A stretch of 52,782 nt of DNA from Escherichia phage vB_EcoM_IntR: the sequence record OM313460. One strand, given 5' to 3'. Below, piece after piece: positions 39,431 through 52,782 of this stretch; within the stretch, counting starts at the first letter, position 1, and each line of letters begins with the position of its first letter. The translations under genes and the position numbers were made by a program. The notes beneath the pieces were generated by a model. The model saw nothing but the letters and a program-made list of their open reading frames with translations, did not search any database and was not told the DNA's origin.

Positions 39431-39459
39431 ATTATACCACATCACTCTCTAGTGGTAAA
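39431..39459 (-). promoter_or_regulatory. sigma70-type promoter on the minus strand (TTTACC-N17-TATAAT)
   Basis: Reverse complement of 39431-39459 reads TTTACC-17 nt-TATAAT. Confidence 0.55.
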
Positions 39460-39474
39460 GCACTTTTTATGCTT

Positions 39475-39509
39475 CGGGTAAAATAAAAAGGACCAGCGTT
39501 AACTGGTCC
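39475..39509 (-). terminator. rho-independent terminator (minus strand)
   Basis: GGACCAG-CGTTAA-CTGGTCC hairpin followed on the minus strand by TTTTTATTTT. Confidence 0.7.
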
Positions 39510-39741
39510 TTATGGCAGGGTGGCGTAAGGAGATACAAGGAATCGCAGTTATGCAACCAGGCAGCGCATATGAGATTGGCTTAAGGACTGACCGACTTAA
39601 TCCCCGCGACGAGTCGAAAGGAGGTACCATCAAGTAGCCAATCACATATGCGTTACTTGCTGTGTGCTCTTACCACAGAAAGTATATAGCGTTACACTTA
39701 TCACACAGTTGTAGTGGCAAAAGCACACAGCAAGTACAACC

Positions 39742-39828
39742 TTAGTTGTGGTGTCTTAGCACCTGAGTTATTGTGGATAACCTGCACCCGACGGGTGTCA
39801 AAAAGATACGCCAAAACACCACAACTAA
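39742..39828. repeat. 13-bp perfect inverted repeat pair flanking a DnaA-box-like 9-mer
   Basis: TTAGTTGTGGTGT at 39742-39754 and ACACCACAACTAA at 39816-39828; TGTGGATAA (reverse complement TTATCCACA) at 39772-39780; palindrome CACCCGACGGGTG at 39785-39797. Confidence 0.5.
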
Positions 39829-40079
39829 AATTGTGACCGCCGTCTACACCAGGCGCCTGGGGTCAAGGTAGCGAGCCAATACCCTTTTCAGCGTCGGAGG
39901 AATCGAACCTCACACATCACGGCTTTTACCAAATCTCGGTCAGCGAGCAGAATTGAACTGCATTCACTGGACACCCTCACTGTTTCAACACACCAGGCTT
40001 AATTGATTGTTGATAAGAAGAGAGATGTAAGGATGTCCATTGAATGCACCTCCGTAGAGGTGCGTTCAGATCAGCGCTA

Positions 40080-40547
40080 TTATTCAGCAACTTCTTCGTT
40101 GTCGCCTTCGATCGCGCCAGCCAGTTTAGCAGCTTCAGCTTTAGCAGCTTCTGCTTTCTGGCGAGCTTTTTCAGCTTTCTCTTCAGCTTTGCGAATCTGC
40201 TCAGCAGCTTTCGCTTCGGCTTTTTCAGCTTTGATGCGAGCACGCTCTTCAGCTTTACGCTGTTTTTCAGCAGCTTTAGCAGCATCGCGTTCTGCTTTAG
40301 CGGTATCAACGCGCTTAGCCAGAACTTTACCAGTGGCTTTACGCCAGTAGGTCAGCTGGGAAGAAACAGTACCACGGGACATTTCGGTAGTGGCAACAAC
40401 TTCGTCCATAACATCGGAGCTGGACTTGCCTTCTTCATGGGCTTTATCAGCCAGGTCCCATACGTAACGTGCGCCAGTACCAGCTGCCGGATACAGTACG
40501 CCGTTAACTTCTTCTTTACCAGTTACAAAAGTCAGTTTCTCGCTCAT
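40080..40547 (-). CDS. hypothetical protein with C-terminal Lys/Ala/Glu-rich single-helix repeat
   Basis: ATG at 40545-40547 with GAGGAAAA RBS; C-terminus KAEKAEAKAAEQIRKAEEKAEKARQKAEAAKAEAAK; overlapping + strand ORFs are low-complexity mirror frames. Confidence 0.5.
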   Translation of the reverse strand: MSEKLTFVTGKEEVNGVLYPAAGTGARYVWDLADKAHEEGKSSSDVMDEVVATTEMSRGTVSSQLTYWRKATGKVLAKRVDTAKAERDAAKAAEKQRKAEERARIKAEKAEAKAAEQIRKAEEKAEKARQKAEAAKAEAAKLAGAIEGDNEEVAE

Positions 40548-40653
40548 AATTTTTTCCTCGTCTACAGGGCTTAATGTTTGTTCGTTACGTGAGTTAATAT
40601 ACGTCATTTAAAAGAGAGTGTAAACACCTTTTTTAAACTTTTTTCATTAGTGT

Positions 40654-40881
40654 TTAGAAAGGCACATCATAGTCAAAAAGTTTACATCCGGAAGACAGGA
40701 CTGCCGGCGGTGGTGTTTTGCCTCCGGATAATAGACAACCTCCTGCCTGAAAGCTACGGCAGTTCGCACAGCTCATATCCTGCAGGTATATAATAAGCTG
40801 CCGGCGAACGTGCCGAGGCAAAGCTTTAGCCTGGGTTGCTACCCGTTCAAATAGTTCTCTGTTATCGAGCGCCATAGCCAT
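40654..40881 (-). CDS. hypothetical Cys-containing small protein
   Basis: 75-aa ORF overlapping the helicase 3' end by 20 nt. Confidence 0.3.
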   Translation of the reverse strand: MAMALDNRELFERVATQAKALPRHVRRQLIIYLQDMSCANCRSFQAGGCLLSGGKTPPPAVLSSGCKLFDYDVPF

Positions 40882-42532
40882 TTCCCCAGTCGTAGTTCAT
40901 GATTTGTGGGTAGGGCCGTTTAATCCATACCTTAATACGCTTAGGAATGGCCAGCTCACCCTTACGGCGGATAAACTCGTCGCATGTTTCAGGCGGTTCG
41001 GTTCCTGCAGCATTACGCCACCAGGCATCTGCCATTTGTTTAGCATTACCATGGGCCTCAATATTTACCCAAGTTGTGTACACTTCCAGGTTTGAGTAGT
41101 ACACAACCTTTATACTGTCAGGTCGTCCTTGCTTCTGGAATAAAGAATAGTTTACCAGCGTAACATCTTTATCCACAACACGAAGCTGGCCATTAGTCAT
41201 TACTTCTTCTTCTGACGAAGTGAATGCAATAGCAGGTCCGTTAACTGTAAATTCAAATTCATGTCCGCACATCGGATATACACCATTCTCATCTGGCGTA
41301 CTTCCTTTAGCCGGATGCTTACACGTACGGGCGGCATAACCACTTACCTGGTGGCAGATAGGGCACTCTTTACCGCCAGGTGTTTTCTCTGACCGTTTCT
41401 TTTTCTTCTTACCAAGACGTGGCGGAACAGCCGGGTCATCAATAGGCCCAAGGTCAATGGTGTTAGATGTAAAGTCCATGACAAGACAGTCATGCTTACC
41501 AGGCGCTGTACGTAACCCTCGACCGAGTATCTGCACCCACAAAGCAACAGACGTGGACGGGCGCAAGATGCCGAGCATATCAATCTCAGGATAGTCAAAT
41601 CCTGTTGTCAATACGTTTACGTTTACACAGACCCGTGCTCGTCCGCTTGTAAACTCTTCCAGCGCCGTTTCACGTTCTTTCTTTGTAAGACCGCCATGCA
41701 CAACTACAGTCTGCCACCCTCGCAGATTAAATTCGTCTGCTATGTTGTGGGCGTGTTCAACACTTGTGGCGAATACAAGAACGTGGTTCCTGTCTTTACC
41801 GTAGTGCATCATCTCGCGGATGGCTGCAACTGTTATGCTGTGTTGGTTGGCTACCTTCTCAAGCTCTGACGGTATATAATCACCCATCCTTTCGCCAACA
41901 TTACTGGTGTCAATCTTGGTTAACACTTTCTTGTTGACCAGGCGTGACAGGAAGCCTTCATTTACCAGTCTGGTGAATGCGTCAGGTGTTGTAAGGTCAT
42001 AGCAGATGTCGGTAAATATACCGCAGTCAAGTAAGTGACCACCCGCCAGTCGATACGGAGTTGCTGTAAGGCCTGTTACCTTTACCTTAGGATTAAGCTC
42101 TTTGAAATGAGCAATAACCTTACGGTATGTTGTTTCAGACTTCTCAGGAACAAGATGGGCTTCGTCAATGAATATAAGATTGAACTTACCTGCTTCTTCC
42201 AGGTTCTTAATAATCGACTGTACTGACGCTACAACGATACGACCTGAAAAGTCTTTGTGTCCTGCGCCTGAAGAGTAGATTGATACTGGTGCTTGCGGCC
42301 AGTGGCGAACAATCGCTTTGGCGTCTTGTTCTACCAGCTCCTTGACGTGTGTCAATATAAGAATACGCTGACGTGGATAGCTGGTAAGAATATCCTTCAT
42401 CAACATACCAAGCACAGGTGATTTACCTGAACCTGTAGGCATGACAATAAGTGGATTACCACTATAAGAATTGAAGTACGACCACCAAGCTGTGACCGCT
42501 TCTTTTTGATACCAGCGAGCTTCAAAAGCCAT
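40862..42532 (-). CDS. SF2 DNA helicase (DEAH-type)
   Basis: Motif I MPTGSGKS, motif II FIDEAH, motif III TATP, motif VI QILGRGLR; C-terminal Cys cluster CPICH...C. Confidence 0.8.
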   Translation of the reverse strand: MAFEARWYQKEAVTAWWSYFNSYSGNPLIVMPTGSGKSPVLGMLMKDILTSYPRQRILILTHVKELVEQDAKAIVRHWPQAPVSIYSSGAGHKDFSGRIVVASVQSIIKNLEEAGKFNLIFIDEAHLVPEKSETTYRKVIAHFKELNPKVKVTGLTATPYRLAGGHLLDCGIFTDICYDLTTPDAFTRLVNEGFLSRLVNKKVLTKIDTSNVGERMGDYIPSELEKVANQHSITVAAIREMMHYGKDRNHVLVFATSVEHAHNIADEFNLRGWQTVVVHGGLTKKERETALEEFTSGRARVCVNVNVLTTGFDYPEIDMLGILRPSTSVALWVQILGRGLRTAPGKHDCLVMDFTSNTIDLGPIDDPAVPPRLGKKKKKRSEKTPGGKECPICHQVSGYAARTCKHPAKGSTPDENGVYPMCGHEFEFTVNGPAIAFTSSEEEVMTNGQLRVVDKDVTLVNYSLFQKQGRPDSIKVVYYSNLEVYTTWVNIEAHGNAKQMADAWWRNAAGTEPPETCDEFIRRKGELAIPKRIKVWIKRPYPQIMNYDWGNGYGAR

Positions 42533-42590
42533 TTAACGTCTCCTCATTAACTTCATATATTATACCACTTCCTTGTGGTGATGTATACTT

Positions 42591-43469
42591 TTATTTTAAG
42601 GAAAGTTTAACGGGCTTCTCATCCTGTGGGAAGACATCAGCAGGGCGATACTCATCGCAAGCCGCTAATTGCTCTTCGATTGTTTCGAGTTCTTTCTGGT
42701 GCTTGTTGCAGTACCACACTTTGCCCTGAAGCGGTTTACTGTAATGGCAGGTTCTGCAGTTCCTGTCTGGCATTGCTCCTTTGTGGCACAAGTGATGGTA
42801 TTCGCACATCCCTGGTTTGCACTCCCACCAAATAGGCGATTCAGAAATCTTCGGCATATCCAAACCAGATTCCGCATATACAACAGCCTCCGCTTTACTC
42901 AGTTGTATGTCGCTTTCCAGTAAGTCAATCTCGACCACTTCAAAATACATCTCGTCAGTGTTCTTGTTGATTGCAATATACACAGCTTGATTCAGCTTAA
43001 GCTTCCGCATGTACACCTGCATCTGGGCGTAGTGTACCGGCTTACTTGCTTTAACAGACTTGAGCTTGACTAACTCTTTAAACGACTTATCGCCATGCGT
43101 CTTGAATTCAGCAAGTGCCCATACGCCTTTGTATTTAATTACACAGTCACAAGACCCAGAGAAGATGTCATTGAAGTCGTGTATGCGCCATTGCTTACCA
43201 GTCTTGGGATTGACGTCCAGCACTTCGTCACATACGGAACGAAGCCACTTTACAATTCTGCTTTCTTCAAGGTTACCACGTTCAAACAGACGAAGTTGCT
43301 TAGCTGTAAACTTCTCCTTGAACGACCAGTGCAGAACGTGCCAAAGATAGCGATAGCAGTTGTGTCCTATCTGCGATGCTCCAAGATGCCCGCGTCGTTC
43401 TTCTCTTTCATGGGCTTCGACTATCTTGATGTCAATACGTTTCTGCAGGTCGTTAAACGGACTGGGCAT
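42591..43469 (-). CDS. RecB-family (Cas4-like) PD-(D/E)XK exonuclease with Cys cluster
   Basis: ATG at 43467-43469 with GAGGAG RBS; DCVIKYKGVWALAEFK (D...ExK), QMQVY (QhxxY), C-terminal CKPGMCEYHHLC...CRTC. Confidence 0.6.
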   Translation of the reverse strand: MPSPFNDLQKRIDIKIVEAHEREERRGHLGASQIGHNCYRYLWHVLHWSFKEKFTAKQLRLFERGNLEESRIVKWLRSVCDEVLDVNPKTGKQWRIHDFNDIFSGSCDCVIKYKGVWALAEFKTHGDKSFKELVKLKSVKASKPVHYAQMQVYMRKLKLNQAVYIAINKNTDEMYFEVVEIDLLESDIQLSKAEAVVYAESGLDMPKISESPIWWECKPGMCEYHHLCHKGAMPDRNCRTCHYSKPLQGKVWYCNKHQKELETIEEQLAACDEYRPADVFPQDEKPVKLSLK

Positions 43470-43938
43470 TGTTAAACTCCTCAACGCTGAATTCATCATA
43501 CACAATATTATGTGCCCACAAATGGGCGACGGCATTTGCCATGCTGTCCTTCCATTTGGATTGAGAAGCTGTGTGTGCCAATGCAACTACCCGAACCAGG
43601 TTAAGGTTGGCTATCAGCATATCTGCACAATGTTCGCACGGCGGGTAGGTTATGTAGATGGTAACCGGGCCTAATGAAGGAGTGTCTAACTCACTCCTTA
43701 TATTAGCTAAGGTATTTATCTCGCTATGAATAGTGAGAGCGTTCTTGAGGCTATTAGGCACTATTCTTATAGAGTCTAGCTGCGTAGGCAGACCGTTATA
43801 TCCAGTGGAAATAATACGCTTGTTCTGGTCCACAAGAACGCTACCGACTTGACGTTTCGGGTCCTTCGACCAGCTTGCAACTTCACAAGCTATGCGCATA
43901 AACCGCTTATCCCACTTGTCCATCTTCTTCTTTTGCAT
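43453..43938 (-). CDS. dCMP deaminase (cytidine/deoxycytidylate deaminase family)
   Basis: Zinc-binding HSE (HSEINTL) and PCEHC motifs; GGAGA RBS. Confidence 0.8.
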   Translation of the reverse strand: MQKKKMDKWDKRFMRIACEVASWSKDPKRQVGSVLVDQNKRIISTGYNGLPTQLDSIRIVPNSLKNALTIHSEINTLANIRSELDTPSLGPVTIYITYPPCEHCADMLIANLNLVRVVALAHTASQSKWKDSMANAVAHLWAHNIVYDEFSVEEFNNAQSV

Positions 43939-43955
43939 GGTAGTCTCCGTATATG

Positions 43956-43976
43956 AAAATAGGGGCCGAAGCCCCT
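43956..43976 (-). terminator. terminator-like hairpin (UUCG tetraloop) on the minus strand
   Basis: AGGGGC-CGAA-GCCCCT on the + strand; on the transcript a hairpin followed by AUUUUC. Confidence 0.45.
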
Positions 43977-43999
43977 ATTGAATATCTACTCGGCAGGGA

Positions 44000-44527
44000 T
44001 TATTCTTCCCAAGGAGCTGCTTCACCACCATCAGTACCAGGTGCCGTTGCAGTAGCACTCGCACCTGCACCTACTTTCTTCGTCGTCGATGCAGTTGCTT
44101 GAGACTGACCGCCTACTGCAGTAGTTGCTTCAGTTGACGCTTTGTATTCGCGAATATCGTTTTGTGGGTCGTACTCACCGGTCTTGTCGATACGAACACC
44201 AACTTTACCGGCTACAATACGGTTTTCCAGTAAGTCGGTAGAAGTCAGTTCAACAATACCCAGCGCACGACACAACGCAGACAGTTTGCGATGACCGATT
44301 TCAACAGCTTGCGCATTAGGGTTGGAGTAGGTAATCATGTCAAATACAACACGGTTAGCGAACTCACCTTCCTGCACTTTCAGACGCAGGGACAGATAAG
44401 AACCAGTGCCTGCTTTAGTCGGCTTCAGCTCAACCTCTTCAATCATGAAGTTGTACCAGCCTTTCGGGATCGGGTCAAAAGACTGTTGCGGTTCGACGGT
44501 AGAGCTGTTGAAGTTTAATTCAGCCAT
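44000..44527 (-). CDS. hypothetical protein (DUF669-like position next to the ATPase; possible ssDNA-binding role)
   Basis: 175-aa ORF with Ala/Thr/Gly-rich acidic C-terminus, directly downstream of the AAA ATPase. Confidence 0.45.
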   Translation of the reverse strand: MAELNFNSSTVEPQQSFDPIPKGWYNFMIEEVELKPTKAGTGSYLSLRLKVQEGEFANRVVFDMITYSNPNAQAVEIGHRKLSALCRALGIVELTSTDLLENRIVAGKVGVRIDKTGEYDPQNDIREYKASTEATTAVGGQSQATASTTKKVGAGASATATAPGTDGGEAAPWEE

Positions 44528-44634
44528 TGTTTGGTATCCTGTTTAAGTTTAATTTAATTTCGTTTAACGCTTTACCGGCAGCGTTCGGCCGTGATGCTTA
44601 TTATACGCCACTTTTTATCATGGCGTAAACACTT

Positions 44635-45519
44635 TTATTCGCCGGATTCTTTTTCAGCTTGAGCAGCTTTCTTCGCCATCCAGGCTAGGTGCTTCTCTTT
44701 CGATTCGTCTGAACCGATTTTAGTGAGTTGCACATTCGGGTCGTCGTTCTGCATTTGTTCTGCAGCTCGACCAGTCAGAAGCAGGTAGCTGTCTGACTCC
44801 GGGTGGTAATACCACAGCTGGTAAGGATGATAGCCTTGTAGCTTATCATAAATCCAACCCAGATCTGCAGGTTCACGTGCATCCAGTTCACGCCCTGGTG
44901 CGTTACGGCACTTAGCTTCCCATTGATAGTCAGGTTGTGTCTGAATATAACGTTCGCTGTTACCGTTGGCATCTGGTGCAGTCATACGCAAAGCAAGTAC
45001 CGCATCCATAAGATACGGCAACTGTTTAGGTAACTGCTGTCCTGGCATAAGAGGTGAGTACAGCATTGCACCAGTAACCTCGTCCTTGTTCTTCTCAAGC
45101 TTGCACAGGTATGCAACGCTGAAAGGCAAGTCACGGAACTGACGCATGATATACATCATCTTGTCGTTGGTATTACCATAAGCCTGTCGTTTGTCGTTGA
45201 CCTGCGACTTCTCATAGTCCAGACAAACTTCAGCAACATCCGATAGTGAGTCGAAAATCAGATGCTCGTACTTCTGCGCATCCTTACTTTCGGTAAGCCA
45301 TTTGTACAGCGCCAGAATGTCATTGAACGTATTGATTGGCGTAGAGTCGATGTCAGCATCTGCAATCGACATCAATCCACCTTCAGCGTTAATGACCAGA
45401 ACCTTGTCATGAGGCAAGGTCTTAGCCAGGCTGGTTTTACCAACACCTGATGCGCCGTAAATAGCGACCTTAGGTCGCTTATTTTCTACGGCTTGTTTAG
45501 TAGATACAATCTGAACCAT
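44635..45519 (-). CDS. AAA/RecA-like ATPase (Sak4-like recombination ATPase)
   Basis: Walker A GASGVGKTSLA, Walker B HLIFDSL; GAGGA RBS. Confidence 0.7.
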   Translation of the reverse strand: MVQIVSTKQAVENKRPKVAIYGASGVGKTSLAKTLPHDKVLVINAEGGLMSIADADIDSTPINTFNDILALYKWLTESKDAQKYEHLIFDSLSDVAEVCLDYEKSQVNDKRQAYGNTNDKMMYIMRQFRDLPFSVAYLCKLEKNKDEVTGAMLYSPLMPGQQLPKQLPYLMDAVLALRMTAPDANGNSERYIQTQPDYQWEAKCRNAPGRELDAREPADLGWIYDKLQGYHPYQLWYYHPESDSYLLLTGRAAEQMQNDDPNVQLTKIGSDESKEKHLAWMAKKAAQAEKESGE

Positions 45520-45749
45520 TAGTGATAGTCCTCGTAAAGTGATTCTTCATCGCAGTACATACGATAAAGAGCTTCTTCGGCTTCTTCCAGGGTGTCAAAC
45601 TCCTCGCCACAGACGGAGTATTTTGTGGGTTCATCGAATGACTCGACGATGTGCCAGTCATGATGAATACCGTACGTCCACAAGTCGCAGTCATCTTTTG
45701 CAACAAGCTTACGTGTGGAACGAAATTGTGCTAGAGTATTGATGCTCAT
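45519..45749 (-). CDS. hypothetical acidic protein
   Basis: ATG at 45747-45749 with GAGGAGAGAG RBS (ORF-track start 45788 is upstream). Confidence 0.4.
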   Translation of the reverse strand: MSINTLAQFRSTRKLVAKDDCDLWTYGIHHDWHIVESFDEPTKYSVCGEEFDTLEEAEEALYRMYCDEESLYEDYH

Positions 45750-45809
45750 ATTCTCTCTCCTCATGTGTATAGAGGTATTATACACCACTTACATGGGGTA
45801 AGTACACTA

Positions 45810-46256
45810 TTATTTTACACTAACAGCTTGACACGATAGCCGCGACAAACCGAGGTTGGCTATAACGCCATCGAGCAATACTCCTGCATGTTCTTCATTG
45901 TATGCTTCTACCCACAAAGGGATGGTGACGCCCTTCAGATGGTCGCTATACACGTTAAACCTATATACCTGTTTGTGTGCTTTGTCAACACGCACAACAG
46001 TAAGGTTACCATCCTCGTAAGGAGGAAGCTCAACGCCTTTCTTACTCCAGAAGTTACGGAACTCAGCACTATTAACAATGCCGTGTACAACACGTTCTGT
46101 AAGCTCTGTTTTGAGGTCAGCACGTGCCTTTGTACTGATAAAGAAACGACAAGAGAAGAAAGCATTGACGTTTAACACATCAACCGCGTACACAACGTTA
46201 TGCTCTTCAGCAGTTGGTGCTTTATAAACAATATATTTAGTTTTGAACAGGTCCAT
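45810..46256 (-). CDS. hypothetical protein
   Basis: 148-aa ORF, GGAGAG RBS. Confidence 0.5.
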   Translation of the reverse strand: MDLFKTKYIVYKAPTAEEHNVVYAVDVLNVNAFFSCRFFISTKARADLKTELTERVVHGIVNSAEFRNFWSKKGVELPPYEDGNLTVVRVDKAHKQVYRFNVYSDHLKGVTIPLWVEAYNEEHAGVLLDGVIANLGLSRLSCQAVSVK

Positions 46257-46279
46257 AGTACTCTCCAGGGAGGAAGATA

Positions 46280-46297
46280 GGCGGGCTTGTACCCGCC
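46280..46297 (-). promoter_or_regulatory. intergenic hairpin
   Basis: GGCGGG-CTTGTA-CCCGCC between the 46305..47210 and 45810..46256 genes. Confidence 0.4.
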
Positions 46298-46304
46298 GAA
46301 GTTA

Positions 46305-47210
46305 TTACAGCAGTTCTGCTTTCATGGCAGCGATACCATCAAGCAATGCTTTGATGTCCGGATTAGATGCTGCCAGGTCTGCAACAACTGACTGACGACG
46401 ACGTTCCAGCTCTTTCTCAACTTCCAGGTCGAGGCGTGCTGATGCTTCACGCAATAAGGTTTCAACCTGCTGACGACGCTGGTACTTGTTAAAGTCAGGT
46501 ACATCAACCAGCCATTTGAGAGTTGCAGTATTATAGCCAGAAGTATTGGCTGCACTTACAGACACAACGTCAACCAGCTTAGTACCGTTTAAGTCCGGAT
46601 AGTTAACATTGCGAACGTCAACAACTGCTTTGTCGCCTACACTTACTTTGCCGATGTACTTGTATGTGTACACACGACCATTCGGTTCAAATTTAACACC
46701 GACGAACTTCAGTTTGTCGTCGGCAATAACTTCTTCCTCAACTTTGAAGTTGATTGCTGTGTTCTTGACAGGTGCAGCCGCTTTGAGCTTAGCAACCATG
46801 TACTGTTCGGAATGAGCAGGACGGCACAGACGGAATACGTCTTCATTGTACGTCAGCCAGTTACCAGTCTCATCCATGCATGCAATCTGATTAGTGCCAT
46901 CCAGCGAACGAACACCCGGACGATTCTTCTCAACACGATACAGCTTACCTTCTTTCAGGTTAGCATAAGAACGGCGGGCGATACCCCAGTTGTGTTTTTC
47001 AGATTCATACTTAGCGAAACGGTCAACACTGAAGTTCTGCTTCAGACCACGGTCGTCAATTACCCATAAGTTATCGTAAGCACCGCCGAAAGAACCCAGG
47101 TTGGCATACACTTTGCCCTGCGTCAACAGGGAAGTGTTTCCCTCGTCAACACAGATAACAAAACCCAGAGCTTCGTGTGCTTTACCGCTGCGGTCAAATA
47201 CTGTAGTCAT
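46305..47210 (-). CDS. hypothetical protein
   Basis: 301-aa ORF, AAGGAAA RBS. Confidence 0.55.
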   Translation of the reverse strand: MTTVFDRSGKAHEALGFVICVDEGNTSLLTQGKVYANLGSFGGAYDNLWVIDDRGLKQNFSVDRFAKYESEKHNWGIARRSYANLKEGKLYRVEKNRPGVRSLDGTNQIACMDETGNWLTYNEDVFRLCRPAHSEQYMVAKLKAAAPVKNTAINFKVEEEVIADDKLKFVGVKFEPNGRVYTYKYIGKVSVGDKAVVDVRNVNYPDLNGTKLVDVVSVSAANTSGYNTATLKWLVDVPDFNKYQRRQQVETLLREASARLDLEVEKELERRRQSVVADLAASNPDIKALLDGIAAMKAELL

Positions 47211-47324
47211 TTCTTGTTTCCTTGTATACCAGTTTGATTGTATGCCAGAGACATTCCCTGCGCATGTGCTTTATTGCTTAACCGTTAAAGACATTATATC
47301 ATTAGTGAGTGGTGACGTACACAT

Positions 47325-47615
47325 TTATTTTAAGGCAGAAGTGCAAATAGCATCACACAAACAATAATGAGCACGGTCGTAGTCTTCAAACAAGAACACT
47401 TCGCCGTTGGCGACTACTTCAATATCGTTAACTTGCATGCTGATACCAGAATGCAGGAGCACATCCATAGCCTGGTCCTTGTTCTTGTACGGGTCCCAAA
47501 TAAGCTGGAAGCCTGACCCGCAAAGGAGACATCCCTTGAGCTCCGGAAGAGTTGACTCCTTCACAGTCACATTACAAATCTTAGCCAGTTTAGCACGAGA
47601 ATCGAGAGTACTCAT
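47325..47615 (-). CDS. hypothetical protein
   Basis: 96-aa ORF, ATGA-coupled to the upstream gene. Confidence 0.45.
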   Translation of the reverse strand: MSTLDSRAKLAKICNVTVKESTLPELKGCLLCGSGFQLIWDPYKNKDQAMDVLLHSGISMQVNDIEVVANGEVFLFEDYDRAHYCLCDAICTSALK

Positions 47616-47902
47616 TTACGTTTACCTTTACGTTTGTGTAGCGGAGTATATGTTTTCTTTGGTACGCCAAACATGGCCGCATATGTACCGACTTCTTTCT
47701 TTGTTGGCTTATCCACAATTTCGTCAATCACGATTAAGTCATGGTCGATATTGCGAAAGACTTCAGCCGCTCTTTTCTCAACAGGAGTAAAGTCAATAAC
47801 CAGCTCTTTGCCTATCAGGCTTTCTTTGAGCTTGTCAAATAGCCATTTGTCACGCGGACCAGGATTGCCCATAAACATAACACGCATCTGCTTATTGTCC
47901 AT
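47612..47902 (-). CDS. hypothetical basic protein
   Basis: 96-aa ORF with Lys/Arg-rich C-terminus. Confidence 0.45.
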   Translation of the reverse strand: MDNKQMRVMFMGNPGPRDKWLFDKLKESLIGKELVIDFTPVEKRAAEVFRNIDHDLIVIDEIVDKPTKKEVGTYAAMFGVPKKTYTPLHKRKGKRK

Positions 47903-47992
47903 GGATGATATACCCCGTTATTTGTGTTGCCAGGTACAAACCGTATACCACACACCCAACTAGTATGGCATCAAGAATCAGATGAGCTATCT

Positions 47993-48295
47993 TTACGTTT
48001 GATCACCGGCCTTGACTGTAACGTTACGGCTGTTAACCACTTCCAGGCTGGTGCCATCATTTTTGTGGGTTACACGAATAAACGCAACACCCTCAGCCTG
48101 TGCCTGCTCAATAGCTTTATTCAGCACAACATTATCCTGTACCATATGACGTACGCGAGGAAGGATATTACAAAGAGGTTCCATCTCATCCATTCCTGCA
48201 GTACGCATGACTGACTTGAGAATGCCAAGATGATGCTTATAACGGTCTTCAAGATTATACTTCTTGCTGTTATGACTTTTACGTTCTGCTGCCAT
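47993..48295 (-). CDS. hypothetical protein
   Basis: ATG at 48293-48295 with GGAGA RBS (ORF-track start 48307 is TTG). Confidence 0.45.
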   Translation of the reverse strand: MAAERKSHNSKKYNLEDRYKHHLGILKSVMRTAGMDEMEPLCNILPRVRHMVQDNVVLNKAIEQAQAEGVAFIRVTHKNDGTSLEVVNSRNVTVKAGDQT

Positions 48296-48314
48296 GTAAG
48301 TCTCCAAAAGTCAA

Positions 48315-48333
48315 GGGGCTTGTGCTAAGCCCC
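48315..48333 (-). promoter_or_regulatory. intergenic hairpin
   Basis: GGGGCT-TGTGCTA-AGCCCC between the 48340..48789 and 47993..48295 genes. Confidence 0.4.
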
Positions 48334-48339
48334 GTCTAA

Positions 48340-48789
48340 TTACTCGGCTTCTTCCGTAGCTGCCGGGGTGAATGTTACAGTCGGAATACCAGGCGAGGTC
48401 TTCACAACAGGGTCGACGATAGCCAGTTGTTCTGGTGTCAGGTTACGGTATGCAGTAACTGACATTTCATACTTGGTTTTAAACAGCTTGGCAACAACAG
48501 TCTTCGGTAACTTCTTCATTACGTCAGGCACAAGCTTCTGGTCTAGCGAGCGGTTAACCTTCTGCTCAACCTTGAGTTTACCAGGTACGCCATGCATGCT
48601 GAACTCAACCGTTAGTGTACCTTCTTTACCACGATTGATAATCATGTCGCGTTCAAGACGTGCTTTAATGGTCCGGCGCAATGTCTCCTGGTTAGCTTTC
48701 GCCTGTGCCATCCAGCGGTTCAGATTCGCCAGCTTGTCGTACAGCTGTTCCGTGTCCATCGATTCCAGTTCTTGTGGGTTCAGTGCCAT
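48340..48789 (-). CDS. hypothetical protein
   Basis: ATG at 48787-48789 with GAGGAAA RBS (ORF-track start 48828 is upstream). Confidence 0.45.
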   Translation of the reverse strand: MALNPQELESMDTEQLYDKLANLNRWMAQAKANQETLRRTIKARLERDMIINRGKEGTLTVEFSMHGVPGKLKVEQKVNRSLDQKLVPDVMKKLPKTVVAKLFKTKYEMSVTAYRNLTPEQLAIVDPVVKTSPGIPTVTFTPAATEEAE

Positions 48790-49060
48790 CAGTTGTTTCC
48801 TCAGGTTGCATGTGCATAGTTGCACCAATTAGTAGACAATAGTTATTGAACATTGTACGTAGTGCCTGGCCCGCAACAATATCCGTTATGTCTATTATAC
48901 CACTTTTAGTGGTGACGCGTAAAGCTTTTTCTTTCTTTGTTTTTTCCACGAATGCAATGCTGATGATTTCTTCCGCATGTATTACGTGGATAGTACCTGC
49001 AAACTCACCAGTCTTAGCTGGTGCCTGGTACACTAACGACATAGACGGTTGGTTACTCAT
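48692..49060 (-). CDS. hypothetical protein (3' end overlaps the next gene by ~98 nt)
   Basis: 122-aa ORF, weak RBS; the long overlap makes the true stop uncertain. Confidence 0.3.
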   Translation of the reverse strand: MSNQPSMSLVYQAPAKTGEFAGTIHVIHAEEIISIAFVEKTKKEKALRVTTKSGIIDITDIVAGQALRTMFNNYCLLIGATMHMQPEETTDGTEPTRTGIDGHGTAVRQAGESEPLDGTGES

Positions 49061-49070
49061 TTAATTACTC

Positions 49071-49508
49071 TTATTTATATAAGTCCATCCAGTTACGATA
49101 CTCGTCATAGAACCGGTCAAACTCGGTTTTGGTGAGTGCGATAGCAACACCATTTACCAGATGCATGGTTCGTGTTTTGATGTTGACATACATGACGTTG
49201 CTGTACGGGAACAAGCTACCGTCATTGTCAGTGAAGTAAGTCGGTGTGATATGAAGCGCATCGCGCAATGCAACCAGCGCTTCAACAGCTTCTGCATGAC
49301 CTTCGCGGCGGAACGTCATGCAAGGCGGTGCACCGTCTTCGTCCTGGGTACCGCGCAAAGTAAGGTATACAATTTCAGCAGTATCATTGTGTACAATTAC
49401 GCTGATGTCAACGATGTCGCTGGTACGGAAGGTAACAAAGTGCTCTTCAATTACTTGTTCGTCGGTATTAGGACTGACGCCCTGAAAGGTCTTGAGTGTG
49501 TGAAACAT
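49071..49508 (-). CDS. hypothetical protein (first gene of the leftward block)
   Basis: ATG at 49506-49508 with GGAGA RBS (ORF-track start 49592 is upstream). Confidence 0.45.
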   Translation of the reverse strand: MFHTLKTFQGVSPNTDEQVIEEHFVTFRTSDIVDISVIVHNDTAEIVYLTLRGTQDEDGAPPCMTFRREGHAEAVEALVALRDALHITPTYFTDNDGSLFPYSNVMYVNIKTRTMHLVNGVAIALTKTEFDRFYDEYRNWMDLYK

Positions 49509-49539
49509 TGGTTGTATCTCCTTAACAGAATGTAAGTCT

Positions 49540-49568
49540 ATTATGTATATAAAGGAGGGGAAAGTAAA
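49540..49568 (-). promoter_or_regulatory. sigma70-type promoter on the minus strand (TTTACT-N17-CATAAT)
   Basis: Reverse complement of 49540-49568 reads TTTACT-17 nt-CATAAT; divergent from the + promoter at 49602-49631. Confidence 0.5.
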
Positions 49569-49601
49569 TAGATATAAATGTATAAAATACATAAAAGTCT
49601 A

Positions 49602-49631
49602 TTTACTCTGGTTTAATAACGTGTATATAAT
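49602..49631 (+). promoter_or_regulatory. sigma70-type promoter (TTTACT-N18-TATAAT)
   Basis: TTTACT 49602-49607, TATAAT 49626-49631. Confidence 0.5.
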
Positions 49632-49661
49632 GAGAGCCTCACAAACAAGAGGAGAGACTCA

Positions 49662-49994
49662 ATGATAAAGCCAAAGCTGTTGCGGCATATTCGCAACGGT
49701 ATTAAGCTACTCGCCGAAGGCAATGAATATGCCTGCAAGCAACGCGGTATTACAAAAGTCGGCCTGTTCAATAAAGAGTTACCGACTCGCTACTTTACCA
49801 AATCACCACTAACACTCGTACCTGCAGCGGAGTATTATAAAGACCCCGAAGCAGCTCGGGCTAAAATCAAGGAAGGTCTTGACCGACTTGTAGAGGAAGG
49901 CTATTTGACAGTACGTCAACACACTGAATCATCTTATTACTACAAGCCAACTTCTAAGGTAACCAGCAATGACAATGACGAGTCAGCCGAGTGA
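49662..49994 (+). CDS. hypothetical protein (possible DNA-binding regulator)
   Basis: 110-aa ORF with AGGAGAG RBS immediately upstream of the primase-helicase gene. Confidence 0.45.
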   Translation: MIKPKLLRHIRNGIKLLAEGNEYACKQRGITKVGLFNKELPTRYFTKSPLTLVPAAEYYKDPEAARAKIKEGLDRLVEEGYLTVRQHTESSYYYKPTSKVTSNDNDESAE

Positions 49995-52503
49995 TATTCT
50001 CGGTCTGAAATACTTTAAGCCAGAAGGGATTCCCCAAGTCTTCAAAGATATGAAGCGCTGGGCTATCTTTGAGCTGACGTACGAAGACGAGACTCTCGAA
50101 GTTCAATCCAAACCTAAGAAACCTGCAAGAGCGCCATCAGGCCGTTCCTTCAGCACAACTGTGCCTGAAGAGTGGATGACTTTCGACGACGCCCTGTCAC
50201 GTTGTATTCGCAATCGTGAAATGAAGATTAAAGCTGTACAGGGGAATATCACCTTTGTGCCGGCTTTGGTTGTTCCTCGCCAGTGGTACTTTGTTGACCT
50301 GGACAACCATGAAGATAACCCAGACATTGAAGCTACCCACAAAGCGATAATTGAAGGGACTCGTGGTGCTTATGCCGAGACGTCAATCTCTGGCAAAGGG
50401 CAACACATTGCAATCCCTTTACCCTGGACTGCAGCAACATCTAAAGAGAAAGACGAACAACTGGACATCAAAATCCAGAAGGCTGAGATGTTCCTGGTAA
50501 TGACAGGCAATGTATTGAGTGAGTTCAATGCTAATCCTGTTTCAGCCCGTGAATGGCATGCAGCAATTGAGAAGTTCTTTCTTGAATCAAGCGCACCTGA
50601 TATTGATGTTGAGTTTGAGCAAGACGAAGACCGTGGCGAAGAGTATGACAAAGAGCTGTACGAACAGCTAGCCGACAATACTCGCTGGGCGCTTGAGCAC
50701 TATCTTAGCGACTACGCACCAGACGGTGTTGGTGTGAGTAATGACGGTTCTGAACGTTTAAGCCGTATCTTAAAAGACTTGCTTCGTGTAACCCGTAACT
50801 ATGAAGTTACACAACGCATCTTCATGGCCAGCAAAGCTGCAGCATACGAAGGTCGTCGTGCAAGTCGACATAGTTTGTCTGTTGACAAGTACCATCAGTG
50901 GTTCAGTCGTGTTGGTAAGACTGTGCTGAAAGAGATGCAACGTGATGGCTTATTCGTCAAGACCAAGTTTGCTCTTGACATCAACAAAGAGTTAACCAAG
51001 AATTCTGGGGTGTCACTGGCTGAGAACGTTGAGTTCAAAGTCAACGACGATATTCTGCCATCTGACGTATTTGTCAGAACGGCCCCGTCCGGGTTTAAAC
51101 GGCTTATTGCTGAGATACAGGATAACATATCTCCGGCTAACAGGGTTAACGACTATGCAATTGGCACAGCTCTTAACATCCTGAGCAACTGCGCCGGTCG
51201 TAAGTATGTTTGTCCAGTAGGCGGTCATGCTAACTTCCTGGTAACCAACATCATTCTTGTGGGTGGTTCATCAATCGGTAAATCGTTGTATACCGAGATG
51301 TTCCCACAAATCCAGGCAAGTTTACCTGACACATCGCCTATCAGCCTTAATCGTATTCCAAGGGAACAGACTTTTGCAACCAGGACGTTCGCTGAACTGA
51401 TGGCTAACCCGTCATACCATTCAGTCCAGTTGTTCTACCCTGAATTTGGTCTGGCTTTAGGTTCTGGCTTACGCATGAATCCTAACAACCCTGACAACTT
51501 TCAGAAAGCTCTGATGGACGCTTCAACCAAGCGTAAGGTTGGCGGTATACTGACAGGTATCAAACGTGCTAATGCTGACAATGATGTCAAGACAGTAAGC
51601 GAACCATGCTACTCTATCCTGGGGGACTCAACTCAAGAGCTTATCCTTGACAACACCCGGAAGCAAGACTTCTCAAGTGGCTTTTTGCCCCGCTTCCTGT
51701 TCATCCCGAACTATGAGCGAGCGGAGTTTGCCAAACCTGAGAAGGTAGGACGTCGCCAGCAGATTCGCCGTACTCAATTCTCCAAAGAGCTGATTGAGAA
51801 ACTGGAAGCAATCGCTTATGTGAATGCTATCCCGCCTAACGGTAAACTAAGGCACGACCCGATTCCTATTTACGACGAATCGGATGATGATGACTTCCTG
51901 TACGAATACCAGTGCAATATTAATGATATGCGCCAGTATTACAGGGATAACGAAGTAGCATCTGCCTTTGTGGGCCGAATGGGCGAGTATGTATTCAATA
52001 TAGCAGCACTGATTGGACTACTCGATAACTGGGATGCTCCTGTTATGACCAGGGACAACATCGAATGGGCTTACAAATATGTTCTTCGTTGTATAACCGC
52101 CTGGGTCAATAACACAAGCAGGATAGTCGCACCACCAACTACCAACGCCGAAGTAGTGGACGGCTTCCTCAAAGTCTACAGGGACATTTTGGCCCTTTAC
52201 ACCAAAAGAGGATGGAACGGTATTGTTAAGCATTATCCTGAGGGTGTTGTGAGAAGTATCCGGGAAGAACACCTCCAGATGAATGGTTTAAGCATATATG
52301 CTATTCGTCAGTCTTTGAGCTGGTTTAAATCGAATTACGGTTTTAATATCACAGCTAACAACAAAGTCATTGACGGTATGCTGCAGGATATGATTGACCA
52401 GGACTATTTAGCAGTTCAAATATATAAGCCCACAAGAGGCCGATCTGCTAACATTTACTGCCTGACAGAGCGAGGATATGACACTGCTAAGAAGTTAAAA
52501 TAA
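49969..52503 (+). CDS. DNA primase-polymerase / SF3 helicase fusion
   Basis: Prim-pol motifs WYFVDLDNHED (hDhD) and SISGKGQHIAIP (sGxGxH); C-terminal P-loop ILVGGSSIGKS. Confidence 0.75.
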   Translation: MTMTSQPSDILGLKYFKPEGIPQVFKDMKRWAIFELTYEDETLEVQSKPKKPARAPSGRSFSTTVPEEWMTFDDALSRCIRNREMKIKAVQGNITFVPALVVPRQWYFVDLDNHEDNPDIEATHKAIIEGTRGAYAETSISGKGQHIAIPLPWTAATSKEKDEQLDIKIQKAEMFLVMTGNVLSEFNANPVSAREWHAAIEKFFLESSAPDIDVEFEQDEDRGEEYDKELYEQLADNTRWALEHYLSDYAPDGVGVSNDGSERLSRILKDLLRVTRNYEVTQRIFMASKAAAYEGRRASRHSLSVDKYHQWFSRVGKTVLKEMQRDGLFVKTKFALDINKELTKNSGVSLAENVEFKVNDDILPSDVFVRTAPSGFKRLIAEIQDNISPANRVNDYAIGTALNILSNCAGRKYVCPVGGHANFLVTNIILVGGSSIGKSLYTEMFPQIQASLPDTSPISLNRIPREQTFATRTFAELMANPSYHSVQLFYPEFGLALGSGLRMNPNNPDNFQKALMDASTKRKVGGILTGIKRANADNDVKTVSEPCYSILGDSTQELILDNTRKQDFSSGFLPRFLFIPNYERAEFAKPEKVGRRQQIRRTQFSKELIEKLEAIAYVNAIPPNGKLRHDPIPIYDESDDDDFLYEYQCNINDMRQYYRDNEVASAFVGRMGEYVFNIAALIGLLDNWDAPVMTRDNIEWAYKYVLRCITAWVNNTSRIVAPPTTNAEVVDGFLKVYRDILALYTKRGWNGIVKHYPEGVVRSIREEHLQMNGLSIYAIRQSLSWFKSNYGFNITANNKVIDGMLQDMIDQDYLAVQIYKPTRGRSANIYCLTERGYDTAKKLK

Positions 52504-52514
52504 GTAGGTAAATC

Positions 52515-52557
52515 AAGGGCTTGGGTAATTGTAAAAATCCTAAGCCCTTATTTTTTA
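52515..52557 (+). terminator. rho-independent terminator
   Basis: AAGGGCTT ... AAGCCCTT inverted repeat followed by ATTTTTT, just after the primase-helicase stop. Confidence 0.55.
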
Positions 52558-52670
52558 AGCTTATTTTACAAACTGATTAATATTTAAACTATAATTAAAT
52601 ATATGGACCCTAAGAGTATGATTTTATTACTCTTTTACAAATCATAATATATGGGCTCCCTATAAAAAGA

Positions 52671-52745
52671 TTAAGGGGGTAATAAGGGGATCCAAGTACC
52701 GGATAAAAGGGGTATATATTTATTTTATTATTATTATTATTATTA
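52671..52745. repeat. AT-rich region with three G-tract iterons and a (TTA)7 microsatellite
   Basis: TTAAGGGGG (52671), ATAAGGGG (52683), ATAAAAGGGG (52703) and TTATTATTATTATTATTATTA at 52725-52745. Confidence 0.55.
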
Positions 52746-52782
52746 TATATTATTAATTATATTAGAAGTAATAAAAACAGCT

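What the first reader, a model, noticed from the sequence alone, without database searches (positions are those of the whole stretch)
52560..52782. AT-rich region downstream of the primase-helicase with G-tract iterons and a (TTA)7 repeat
After the terminator the sequence becomes very A/T-rich and contains three spaced (A)TAA(AA)GGGG elements (52671-52712) and a perfect (TTA)7 tract (52725-52745). Iterons plus an AT-rich unwinding element next to a primase-helicase gene fit a replication origin. A genome end or packaging-related region is the alternative.
Basis: inference. Interest (0 to 1): 0.4.

Follow-up and report, generated by a model that had tools for sequence, protein, structure and literature searches.

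The report
Origin-like region beside phage genome end
The AT-rich, repeat-bearing stretch after the primase gene is real and conserved. It sits about 100-200 bp before the true physical end of this phage's DNA and looks like a replication origin served by the neighbouring primase-helicase, a familiar kind of element that has not been tested experimentally.

Summary
Window 52551-52760 is the most AT-rich 200 bp of the genome. It holds the only cluster of three G-runs and a perfect (TTA)7.

The window is a whole Rosemountvirus genome (BP63/swi3-like), opened at an arbitrary point. The element continues across the junction into window 1-150.

Relatives with determined or redundant ends are fHy-Eco03 (PhageTerm plus digests), Sz, AEV23 and LPSEYT. 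They place the left end of a ~4.3-kb direct terminal repeat (DTR) at window 75|76 (GCT|GGTG) and its right end at 4358. So a physical genome end lies about 110-185 bp downstream of the finder's elements.

The elements themselves track the primase, not the terminase. Phages S144 and ZCSE2 have identical TerS and TerL and near-identical DTRs. Their upstream modules differ, and the primase C-terminal (probably winged-helix) domain differs with them. Short CCGGAT-type boxes flank a ~50-nt pure A/T tract whose composition, but not sequence, is conserved. This is the layout of SaPI Pri-Rep origins.

Best reading: an origin-like module that abuts the DTR terminus. Origin firing is untested. This is a new member of known kinds, of moderate interest.

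The parts
49969..52503 (+). Primase-helicase gene (844 aa). N-terminal primase-like region, central P-loop/DUF3987-like region, and a probable C-terminal winged-helix domain (last ~70 aa, about 52290-52500).
   Evidence: phrog_3022 'DNA primase', E 6e-187. Pfam DUF3987 is below cutoff. C-terminus: PadR/HTH_45/MC4 hints in 5 of 8 members, AF2 local pLDDT 65-82 with wHTH topology, and Foldseek hits dominated by PadR-like winged helices.
52511..52556 (+). Intrinsic terminator of the primase gene.
   Evidence: RNA fold -17.8 kcal/mol, z -2.7. Compensatory stem changes in A1.
52557..52664 (.). AT-rich, poorly conserved spacer with a direct repeat AATATATGGRC (about 52598-52610 and 52646-52658). It has only a weak promoter-like TTTACA-19-TATAAT.
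   Evidence: Segment identity 0.62 in birk-type phages. Repeat D3. No promoter passes the scan here.
52670..52712 (+). Three G/polypurine tracts with G-runs starting at 52675, 52686 and 52709. The 11- and 23-bp spacing is roughly helical phasing. GATwAAGGGGGTA is repeated at 35 bp.
   Evidence: The first tract is near-universal and sits at -183..-187 from the cut in 11 of 16 phages. Tracts 2 and 3 become AAAGAAA/AAGAGAG in ZCSE2/fHy-type phages.
52695..52707 (+). Left iteron-like box AGTACCGGATAAA, one copy of an 18-nt direct repeat.
   Evidence: The 13-mer occurs exactly only here and at 50-62, with one further 1-mismatch site at 7262. Three sites against 0.27 expected, and 0 of 100 shuffles reach this. 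Repeat D1.
52713..52764 (.). 52-nt tract of pure A/T containing (TTA)7 (52725-52745). Candidate DNA-unwinding element and a slippage-prone microsatellite.
   Evidence: The tract is 44-54 nt in most of the 16 relatives (range 28-66) and ends 90-112 nt before the cut. Its sequence drifts between (TTA)n, (TA)n and (TATC)n. Copy number varies.
52772..52782 (+). First half of the invariant box TAAAAACAGCT|ACTTAG, which is split by the window's linearisation.
   Evidence: AAAACA...CTTA is invariant in 13 of 13 (A1) and 12 of 12 (A3) relatives. No second copy in the genome.
1..6 (+). Second half (ACTTAG) of the invariant box.
24..31 (-). Inverted box ATCCGGTT (CCGGAT on the minus strand), forming an 8-bp inverted repeat with 52-59.
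   Evidence: Single-strand folding is not significant, z -1.2.
50..62 (+). Right iteron-like box AGAACCGGATGAA, 22 bp before the cut.
   Evidence: The -22/-23 box is conserved in Rosemount-, S144-, PK3-, SE4- and Logan-type phages.
72..79 (.). Inferred terminus cleavage site CGCT|GGTG. The first base of mature virion DNA is predicted at 76.
   Evidence: Homologous to the fHy-Eco03 DTR start, the first base of the Sz record, and the point where homology begins in AEV23. G-C-G-G-G columns are invariant.
80..103 (+). A-run followed by the box GCCGGACTGA (consensus GyCGGATTG), inside the DTR.
   Evidence: Invariant across genera.
122..150 (+). Sigma-70-type promoter TTTACA-17-TACAAT with an extended -10 TG, driving the PD-(D/E)XK gene at 205..636.
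   Evidence: 10 of 12 match, the best site in the region. Conserved. The gene is Pfam PDDEXK_15, E 1.6e-17.
76..4358 (.). Predicted direct terminal repeat (~4,283 bp) carrying the resolvase-like gene and a block of small leftward genes.
   Evidence: Boundaries transferred from fHy-Eco03 (3,699 bp) and Sz (about 4,264 bp). The same rule gives 3,915 bp in S144, equal to the published DTR of AEV23.
4145..4186 (+). R1: G-tract motif GGGGTTATAAT..AGGGGTGCC followed by GCCGGCG. No cut has been reported at this site.
4321..4358 (+). R2: GGGGGGTAAT..AAGGGTGC followed by GGAGCC|AGCGG. This is the right boundary of the DTR.
   Evidence: The Sz record ends at ...GGAGCC. fHy-Eco03 DTR end. The LPSEYT record is opened 7 nt beyond it. 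S144 restriction mapping puts an end in this gap.

Best explanation
The finding is the left part of one conserved, apparently untranscribed cis-acting block (about 52665..150). The block combines two things.

1. A genome terminus (shown by homology to determined ends). The mature virion DNA starts at window 76 (CGCT|GGTG...) and carries a ~4.3-kb direct terminal repeat ending at 4358. The finder's elements therefore sit 110-185 bp outside the left DTR boundary. In the virion they lie just before the right-hand DTR copy. The window's own end is only an assembly convention.

2. An origin-like module (inferred). It has the Pri-Rep (SaPI/P4-like) layout. Directly after the primase-helicase ORF, short boxes lie on both sides of a ~50-nt pure A/T tract. 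These are AGwACCGGATrAA at 52695 and 50, an inverted copy at 24, and the phased G/polypurine tracts.

The proposed mechanism has three steps:
- The primase-helicase binds the boxes through its C-terminal winged-helix domain.
- It melts the A/T tract and loads itself.
- It then primes DNA synthesis.

Speculative addition: because the module abuts the cut site, forks started here may also help duplicate the terminal repeat during concatemer processing, as at the T7 concatemer junction.
For: Terminus:
- fHy-Eco03 has 3,699-bp DTRs by PhageTerm plus restriction digests (PMC8145870). Its DTR starts at ...TTGCC|GGCGCAAAAAG, which aligns to window 75|76.
- The Sz record starts at GGCGAAAAAAAT and ends at ...GGAGCC.
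- AEV23 homology begins exactly at |GGCGGAAAA, with foreign DNA upstream.
- My L-to-R2 rule gives 3,915 bp in S144, equal to the published AEV23 DTR.
- S144 digests show a physical end in the matching gap and no cohesive ends.

Origin-like module:
- The position, directly 3' of the primase ORF between a terminator and the next promoter.
- The A/T tract is conserved in length and position but not in sequence.
- The 13-nt box occurs exactly only twice, once on each side of the tract.
- ZCSE2- and fHy-type phages carry their own internally matching boxes in equivalent places.
- S144 and ZCSE2 have 100% identical TerS and TerL and 95-100% identical DTRs. The module is only 42-66% identical, and the last ~86 aa of the primase changes with it: 94% identical to birk against 75% to ZCSE2.
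- The C-terminus is probably a winged helix.
- SaPI Pri-Rep origins have exactly this layout (PMC9371898).
Against: - There are no reads or experiments for this phage. Termini are transferred from relatives, and the cut-site core differs by two transitions (GCT|GGTG against GCC|GGCG).
- One paper reports 'COS' for the Rosemountvirus vB_SenM-1.
- Origin function is by analogy only. The primase shows no detectable sequence relation to solved Reps.
- The winged-helix call rests on sub-threshold hits and a locally confident part of a poor model.
- The module/primase co-variation is a single recombination event between adjacent DNA.
- The lineage-specific boxes are individually weak statistically.
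- There is only one box left of the A/T tract.
- G-tracts 2 and 3 and the left box are absent in some relatives.
- The two best-conserved boxes (-22, +19) flank the cut, which would also fit terminase binding.
Confidence: 0.5

Rival explanations
1. Purely a terminus or packaging signal. The G-tracts, CCGGAT boxes and bendable A/T tract would form the recognition platform for terminase or an accessory nuclease that cuts at 75|76, analogous to lambda cosB or a T7 pac site, with no origin function.
For: - The elements lie within 200 bp of the inferred cut, at a conserved distance. The first G-run is at -183..-187 in 11 of 16 phages.
- The cut-site hexamer is degenerate (GCY|RRY), so specificity must come from flanking sequence.
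- The pattern G4+T[AT]A[AT]N0-10[AG]GGG occurs only at 4145, 4321 and 52675 in the whole genome, each time upstream of a GCYRGYG site, against a null of about 0.2.
- Boxes at -22 and +19 flank the cut.
Against: - S144 and ZCSE2 have identical TerS and TerL and near-identical DTRs but very different upstream modules.
- fHy-Eco03, whose terminus is verified, keeps only one G-tract.
- The regex was shaped after seeing the sites. An unbiased local alignment of the left against the right boundary regions is not significant, p 0.17-0.23.
Confidence: 0.2
2. No sequence-specific cis function. This would be a terminator-to-promoter spacer that is AT-rich by drift, carries a slippage microsatellite, and looks conserved only because the phages are closely related.
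For: - (TTA)n copy number varies, and the tract changes repeat type between lineages.
- The first 80 bp of the finding is freely replaced.
- There are no Rfam hits, no perfect DnaA box and only one perfect IHF match, inside the terminator stem, and no significant secondary structure.
Against: - Blocks are invariant out to Erwinia phage SOI901, whose primase is only 43% identical.
- Positions relative to the cut are conserved despite sequence drift.
- The core is far better conserved than the adjacent spacer and 5'UTR.
- The box repeat is significant.
Confidence: 0.12
3. A transcription-control region. The repeats would be operator or UP-like sites for a phage or host regulator acting on the early promoter at 122-150 or on read-through from the primase operon.
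For: A strong sigma-70-type promoter lies 120-190 bp downstream. The repeated boxes and phased purine tracts resemble regulator sites.
Against: The elements are 150-250 bp upstream of the -35 hexamer, separated from it by the physical genome end. At the left end of the virion DNA the promoter therefore lacks them entirely. They also co-vary with the primase C-terminus rather than with the promoter or DTR, which stay constant between S144 and ZCSE2.
Confidence: 0.08
4. The window end itself (52782|1) is the physical genome end, or a cos site.
For: Several records (BP63, swi3, SD350) start at this exact base. One paper reports COS packaging for a Rosemountvirus.
Against: - Many relatives run straight through this point.
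- BP63 simply lacks the 58 nt containing the (TTA) tract, which indicates an assembly break in low-complexity DNA that later records copied.
- The determined ends lie at 76 and 4358.
- Cohesive ends were excluded for S144.
Confidence: 0.03

Closest known systems
DTR boundary of Escherichia phage vB_EcoM_fHy-Eco03 (PMC8145870); also the Sz record and AEV23 (PMC12918118)
   Same: Homologous sequence and the same gene order (gp79, primase gp80, non-coding block, DTR with the resolvase-like gene). Both boundary contexts match: GCY|GGYG plus an A-run plus CGGATTG on the left, and GGAGCC|RGCG plus a T-run on the right.
   Different: The window phage has a longer predicted DTR (4,283 against 3,699 bp) and lacks the extra gp01 ORF. 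Its cut core has two transitions. It carries three G-tracts and (TTA)7, where fHy-Eco03 has one G-tract and (TA)n. None of those papers describes the non-coding motifs.
SaPI Pri-Rep / Rep origins (self-loading SF3-type helicase initiators; PMC9371898), and phage P4 alpha/ori (P4 from my own knowledge)
   Same: A primase-helicase that probably ends in a C-terminal winged helix. Short (~6-nt core) repeats begin immediately downstream of its ORF, lie on both sides of a central AT-rich tract, and include at least one copy in opposite orientation. Repeats and the C-terminal domain vary together between lineages.
   Different: No detectable sequence homology to solved Reps. There are fewer boxes (1 left and 2-3 right, against 6-12). 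G/polypurine tracts are an extra feature. The module abuts a DTR cut site. Binding and origin activity are untested.
Phage T7 concatemer junction (origin + pac + terminal repeat; Chung & Hinkle 1990 as cited in PMC13236587)
   Same: Cis elements for replication and for end formation are clustered at the junction between unique right-end DNA and the terminal repeat of a DTR phage.
   Different: The T7 repeat is 160 bp and its signals depend on phage RNA polymerase promoters. Here the repeat is ~4.3 kb, no phage RNA polymerase promoter is evident, and no functional data exist.
Lambda cos (cosN nick site with cosB R-sites and a bend)
   Same: A cleavage site with repeated short elements and bendable AT-rich DNA to one side.
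   Different: Cohesive ends were excluded for the relative S144. The ends here are terminally redundant. Identical terminases tolerate different upstream modules.

Membership tests
Rosemountvirus/Loughboroughvirus DTR left-boundary region | Sequence homologous to an experimentally determined DTR boundary | tested here: met
   The fHy-Eco03 DTR start aligns to window 75|76.
Rosemountvirus/Loughboroughvirus DTR left-boundary region | Conserved cut context GCC|GGCG, then an A-run, then GyCGGATTG | tested here: met
   Present at 72-103. The core reads GCT|GGTG (two transitions), as in PiR. Sz, which has redundant ends, reads GCT|GGCG.
Rosemountvirus/Loughboroughvirus DTR left-boundary region | Matching right boundary at a DTR-sized distance | tested here: met
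   GGAGCC|AGCGG at 4356-4360. The predicted DTR is 4,283 bp, against about 4,264 bp in Sz. The same rule gives 3,915 bp in S144, equal to the published AEV23 value.
Rosemountvirus/Loughboroughvirus DTR left-boundary region | Read-start peaks and doubled coverage in this phage's own virion DNA | not testable with these tools
   No reads are available.
Pri-Rep / P4-alpha-type iteron origin | Repeats begin immediately downstream of the initiator helicase ORF | tested here: met
   The conserved core starts about 160 bp after the stop codon, after the terminator.
Pri-Rep / P4-alpha-type iteron origin | The initiator carries a C-terminal winged-helix DNA-binding domain | tested here: inconclusive
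   Sub-threshold PadR/HTH_45 hits. AF2 local pLDDT 65-82 with wHTH topology inside a poor model. Foldseek hits are PadR-like but none reach E<=0.001.
Pri-Rep / P4-alpha-type iteron origin | The initiator is homologous to known Rep / P4 alpha helicases | tested here: not met
   No PDB sequence hits with the single protein or with profiles. Only DUF3987, below cutoff. It is therefore not filed as a member, only as working like one.
Pri-Rep / P4-alpha-type iteron origin | At least two iterons on each side of a central AT-rich tract, in opposed orientations | tested here: inconclusive
   CCGGAT boxes at -159(+), -52(-), -22(+) and +19(+) relative to the cut, with the A/T tract at -145..-94. Only one box lies on the left, plus three purine tracts.
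Pri-Rep / P4-alpha-type iteron origin | Iterons co-vary with the initiator's DNA-binding domain | tested here: met
   S144 against ZCSE2: the module and the primase C-terminus change together while TerS, TerL and the DTR stay identical. ZCSE2 has its own C[CA]CGGTAATA boxes. This is a single event, so the support is modest.
Pri-Rep / P4-alpha-type iteron origin | Origin activity and specific initiator binding | not testable with these tools
   Needs EMSA, marker-frequency analysis or a plasmid replication assay.
Cohesive-end (cos) site | Complementary single-stranded ends that anneal | not tested
   Not testable on this phage here. For the relative S144, fast and slow cooling of digests gave no difference, which excludes cos (PMC7432712).
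DnaA-dependent origin | Cluster of DnaA boxes (TTWTNCACA) next to the unwinding element | tested here: not met
   No perfect box. Only three 1-mismatch sites in AT-rich DNA.

The most novel reading that the evidence does not exclude
The origin and the terminus are mechanistically coupled. A self-loading primase-helicase, which has been reported as virion-associated in relatives, would initiate at this module directly beside the DTR cut site. Forks or strand displacement from it would then duplicate the 4.3-kb terminal repeat during concatemer maturation. That would be a long-DTR analogue of the T7 junction, operating without a phage RNA polymerase. The cut site would also act as a hard recombination boundary between a mobile 'replication cassette' and the rest of the genome.
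Probability: 0.15. Interest if true: 0.55.

Novelty: new member of a known kind. Interest (0 to 1): 0.35.

Why it matters
Most database records of this widely isolated group of therapeutic and biocontrol phages (Rosemountvirus, Loughboroughvirus) are deposited as arbitrary linearisations without their ~4-kb terminal repeats. Fixing the true ends (window 76 and 4358) corrects genome length, gene dosage and annotation.

A defined candidate origin next to the end gives a concrete fragment for engineering, for example phagemids, transducing particles or synthetic rebooting. It also offers a tractable case for asking how long direct terminal repeats are duplicated, which is poorly understood outside T7.

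The S144/ZCSE2 comparison shows that the primase C-terminus plus its adjacent non-coding module is exchanged as a cassette, and that the cassette ends exactly at the genome terminus.

Tried and rejected
- A hairpin or cruciform at the cut: an 8-bp inverted repeat exists, but single-strand folding of 140 nt is not better than shuffles (z -1.2). Dropped.
- Structured RNA: no Rfam match even at E<=1.
- Host-factor boxes: no perfect DnaA box. The only perfect IHF match lies inside the terminator stem.
- Promoters inside the finding: none pass the scan, and only a 19-nt-spaced TTTACA/TATAAT is visible by eye.
- Homology between the left and right boundaries: shared short motifs only. Smith-Waterman against shuffles gives p 0.17 and 0.23, so the shared G-tract motif (a post hoc regex) is kept only as a hint.
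- Testing whether the module travels with the primase in distant phages: not possible. The primase family has only 7 clusters, the most distant being SOI901 at 43% identity.
- IMG/VR locus L017 proved to be an unrelated high-GC phage.
- The 'Ku' label of S144 ORF01: not reproduced by Pfam or PHROGs for window 4601-5161.
- AF2 single-sequence model of the C-terminus: unusable, pLDDT 43.
- PDB sequence searches: negative.
- A plasmid-replicon relationship: the only 'plasmid' hits are whole phage genomes.

Full report
**What the window is.** The last 3.8 kb matches about 60 phage records. The best is Escherichia phage PiR at 98.4%. vB_EcoM_swi3 has the same length and coordinates as the window. 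All are Rosemountvirus (BP63-like myophages) or the sister genus Loughboroughvirus. In records that are circularly permuted (birk, PiR, brunost) the window's last base is followed directly by its first base. The finding is therefore the left part of a ~483-bp intergenic region, 52504..52782 + 1..204. This region lies between the primase gene and a PD-(D/E)XK 'resolvase-like' gene (Pfam PDDEXK_15). BP63, swi3 and SD350 all start at window base 1, and BP63 lacks exactly the 58 nt that hold the (TTA) tract. The window's end is thus a convention inherited from an assembly break in low-complexity DNA, not a physical end.

**Check of the observation.**
- The stretch is the most AT-rich 200 bp in the genome, 78% against 54 +/- 4%.
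- It holds the only cluster of three G>=4 runs within 60 bp on either strand.
- It holds the only trinucleotide array that TRF finds in the window.
- The terminator after the primase gene is real and shows compensatory changes in relatives.

**Anatomy and conservation.** I aligned 13 and then 12 homologous regions, out to Erwinia phage SOI901, whose primase is only 43% identical. The alignments show a layered block, in this order:
- the terminator;
- a replaceable spacer (52557-52664; only 62% identical in birk-type phages);
- three G/polypurine tracts spaced 11 and 23 bp apart;
- a box AGTACCGGATAAA between tracts 2 and 3;
- a 52-nt tract of pure A/T containing (TTA)7;
- an invariant TAAAACAnnnACTTAG, which is split by the window junction;
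- an inverted CCGGAT and a second box AGAACCGGATGAA;
- an invariant GCY|GGYG;
- an A-run, then GyCGGATTG;
- a TTTACA-17-TACAAT promoter.

The 13-nt box occurs exactly only at 52695 and 50, with one further 1-mismatch site at 7262. That makes three sites against 0.27 expected, and 0 of 100 shuffles reach it. Positions are well conserved. The first G-run is at -183..-187 from the cut in 11 of 16 phages. A 44-54-nt pure A/T tract ends 90-100 nt before the cut in most of them. The tract's sequence, however, drifts between (TTA)n, (TA)n and (TATC)n. G-tracts 2 and 3 decay to AAAGAAA/AAGAGAG in ZCSE2- and fHy-Eco03-type phages.

**A physical genome end lies in this block.**
- fHy-Eco03, a relative placed among the Rosemountviruses by its authors, has 3,699-bp direct terminal repeats. 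They were found by PhageTerm and confirmed by restriction digests (PMC8145870).
- In its record the right repeat begins at ...TTGCC|GGCGCAAAAAGAAAAAAAGCCGGATT and the left repeat ends at ...TTAAGCCCC|GGCAAATTTTTT.
- The close relative Sz (57,020 bp, redundant ends) starts at GGCGAAAAAAATAAAAAAGCCGG and ends at ...CCAGGAGCC.
- The AEV23 record is homologous to S144 only from |GGCGGAAAATTT onward, with IS5-like DNA fused upstream.
- The LPSEYT record is opened 7 nt beyond the right boundary.

Transferred to the window, the left end is at 75|76 (CGCT|GGTG) and the repeat ends at 4358 (GGAGCC|AGCGG), giving 4,283 bp. As an independent check, the same two landmarks in S144 are 3,915 bp apart. This is exactly the DTR length published for its close relative AEV23 (PMC12918118). 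Restriction mapping of S144 found a physical end in the matching gap and excluded cohesive ends (PMC7432712). One conflicting claim exists, 'COS' for vB_SenM-1. By that paper's own account its record opens with a truncated ORF lacking a stop codon, so I read it as an arbitrary linearisation.

**What the finder's elements do: terminase signal or origin?**

*Terminase signal.* The pattern G4+T[AT]A[AT]N0-10[AG]GGG occurs at only three places in the genome (4145, 4321, 52675). Each lies upstream of a GCYRGYG site. I shaped that pattern after seeing the sites, however. An unbiased local alignment of the left against the right boundary regions is not significant (p 0.17 and 0.23).

*A natural experiment argues the other way.* S144 and ZCSE2 belong to one species.
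- Their putative TerS (98 aa) and TerL (482 aa) are 100% identical.
- Everything to the right of the cut is 95-100% identical.
- Identity collapses to 42-66% immediately to the left of the cut.
- S144 there carries a Rosemount-type module with three G-tracts, (TTA)7 and CCGGAT boxes. ZCSE2 has one G-tract, no such boxes and an 18-bp insertion.
- The last ~86 aa of the primase changes together with the module. S144 is 94% identical to birk but 75% to ZCSE2 there, while the upstream primase segments are equidistant.

Identical terminases therefore accept different modules, and the modules track the primase C-terminus. ZCSE2 has its own matching boxes (C[CA]CGGTAATA) on both sides of its A/T tract. 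fHy-Eco03 has (C/G)GGAAAAAGA repeats. Lineage-specific boxes that match each other within a lineage are what iterons would show, although each case is statistically weak on its own.

**The neighbouring protein.**
- The 844-aa product matches PHROG 'DNA primase' families over its full length. In Pfam it matches only DUF3987, below cutoff.
- Its C-terminus gives sub-threshold hits to PadR, HTH_45 and MC4 in 5 of 8 members.
- An AF2 model is poor overall, but the last ~110 residues reach pLDDT 65-82 with beta-alpha-alpha-beta-wing-beta topology.
- Foldseek returns almost only winged-helix DNA-binding proteins plus ORC AAA+-WH subunits. None is individually significant.
- I found no sequence link to solved Rep proteins.

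The published SaPI Pri-Rep system has the same logic. It is a self-loading primase-helicase whose C-terminal winged helix binds 5-6-nt iterons. These iterons sit immediately downstream of its ORF, on both sides of a central AT-rich region, in opposed orientations (PMC9371898).

**Conclusion.**
- Shown by homology to determined ends: the genome end is at 76, and the element lies just outside the DTR.
- Inferred: the G/polypurine tracts, the CCGGAT-type boxes and the A/T tract form a Pri-Rep-like origin served by the adjacent primase-helicase.
- Speculative: initiation here is coupled to terminal-repeat duplication. T7 is the precedent, with its origin, pac site and terminal repeat clustered at the concatemer junction (PMC13236587).

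Nothing here lies outside known kinds of element, and the motif architecture itself appears undescribed in the papers I could search.

Noticed in passing
window 52782|1; BP63 KM366099 ends at window ~52724: The window's linearisation point is inherited from BP63. That record lacks exactly the 58 nt holding the (TTA) tract, an assembly break in low-complexity DNA. swi3 and SD350 start at the same base. IMG/VR contig L016 also breaks just after the A/T tract.
   Followed up: yes
window 540, 556, 696, 699, 701, 717, 850, 851: Eight N bases, several of them inside the PD-(D/E)XK gene (205..636). The window is also only ~96.7% identical to the swi3 record despite having the same length and coordinates.
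   Followed up: no
window 4145-4186 and 4321-4358: There are two tandem copies, about 175 bp apart, of a module: G-tract motif, then ~30 nt, then GCCRGCG, then an A/T run. Only the second (R2) coincides with the DTR end. Why R1 is apparently not cut is unexplained. Both copies are conserved out to Erwinia phage SOI901.
   Followed up: partly
L008 (S144) about 1350-1420 against ZCSE2: A sharp mosaic breakpoint coincides with the inferred genome end. Identity is 95-100% to its right and 42-78% to its left, and the divergent stretch reaches back into the primase 3' end. This suggests the terminus is a recombination boundary.
   Followed up: yes
L011 (AEV23 OR810919) 1-1496: The AEV23 record carries IS5-transposase and methyltransferase DNA fused exactly at the phage's left terminus. 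This looks like a chimeric assembly rather than phage sequence.
   Followed up: partly
NZ_CP067310.1 (53,474 bp, circular) and NZ_JBVNBN010000003.1 (52,771 bp): Two 'plasmids' in complete E. coli assemblies are whole Rosemountvirus genomes, and no chromosomal copies exist. This could be contamination, a carrier state or pseudolysogeny.
   Followed up: partly
PP583539.1: A record named 'Listeria phage 220426122051' is about 96-97% identical to this Salmonella/E. coli phage group. The host label is probably wrong.
   Followed up: no
window 49662..49994 and 49969..52503 (homologues fHy-Eco03 gp79/gp80, S144 ORF69): The primase-helicase homologue was detected in purified virions by LC-MS/MS in both fHy-Eco03 (gp80) and S144 (ORF69). 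The small upstream protein's homologue was detected in fHy-Eco03 (gp79). This is unusual for a replication protein. If real, it may be injected with the DNA.
   Followed up: no
whole genome; window 5079..5753 (DHFR domain), 5750..6256 (thymidylate kinase): DNA of the relatives S144 and fHy-Eco03 resists most restriction enzymes and is cut only by the AT-specific SspI and PacI. This implies an unidentified base modification that could also affect the G-tract and GCCGGC sites discussed here.
   Followed up: no
MT012730.1 (vB_SenM-1), PMC7503781: The published PhageTerm call of 'COS' packaging for this Rosemountvirus conflicts with the DTRs found in fHy-Eco03 and AEV23 and with the exclusion of cohesive ends in S144.
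   Followed up: partly
window 18888-18908: GGGGGTAA occurs on both strands 13 nt apart, a palindromic pair. It is probably a terminator hairpin between structural genes.
   Followed up: no
window 7440..7733: An unannotated ~97-aa ORF directly upstream of TerL is homologous to S144 ORF07 ('putative terminase small subunit').
   Followed up: partly
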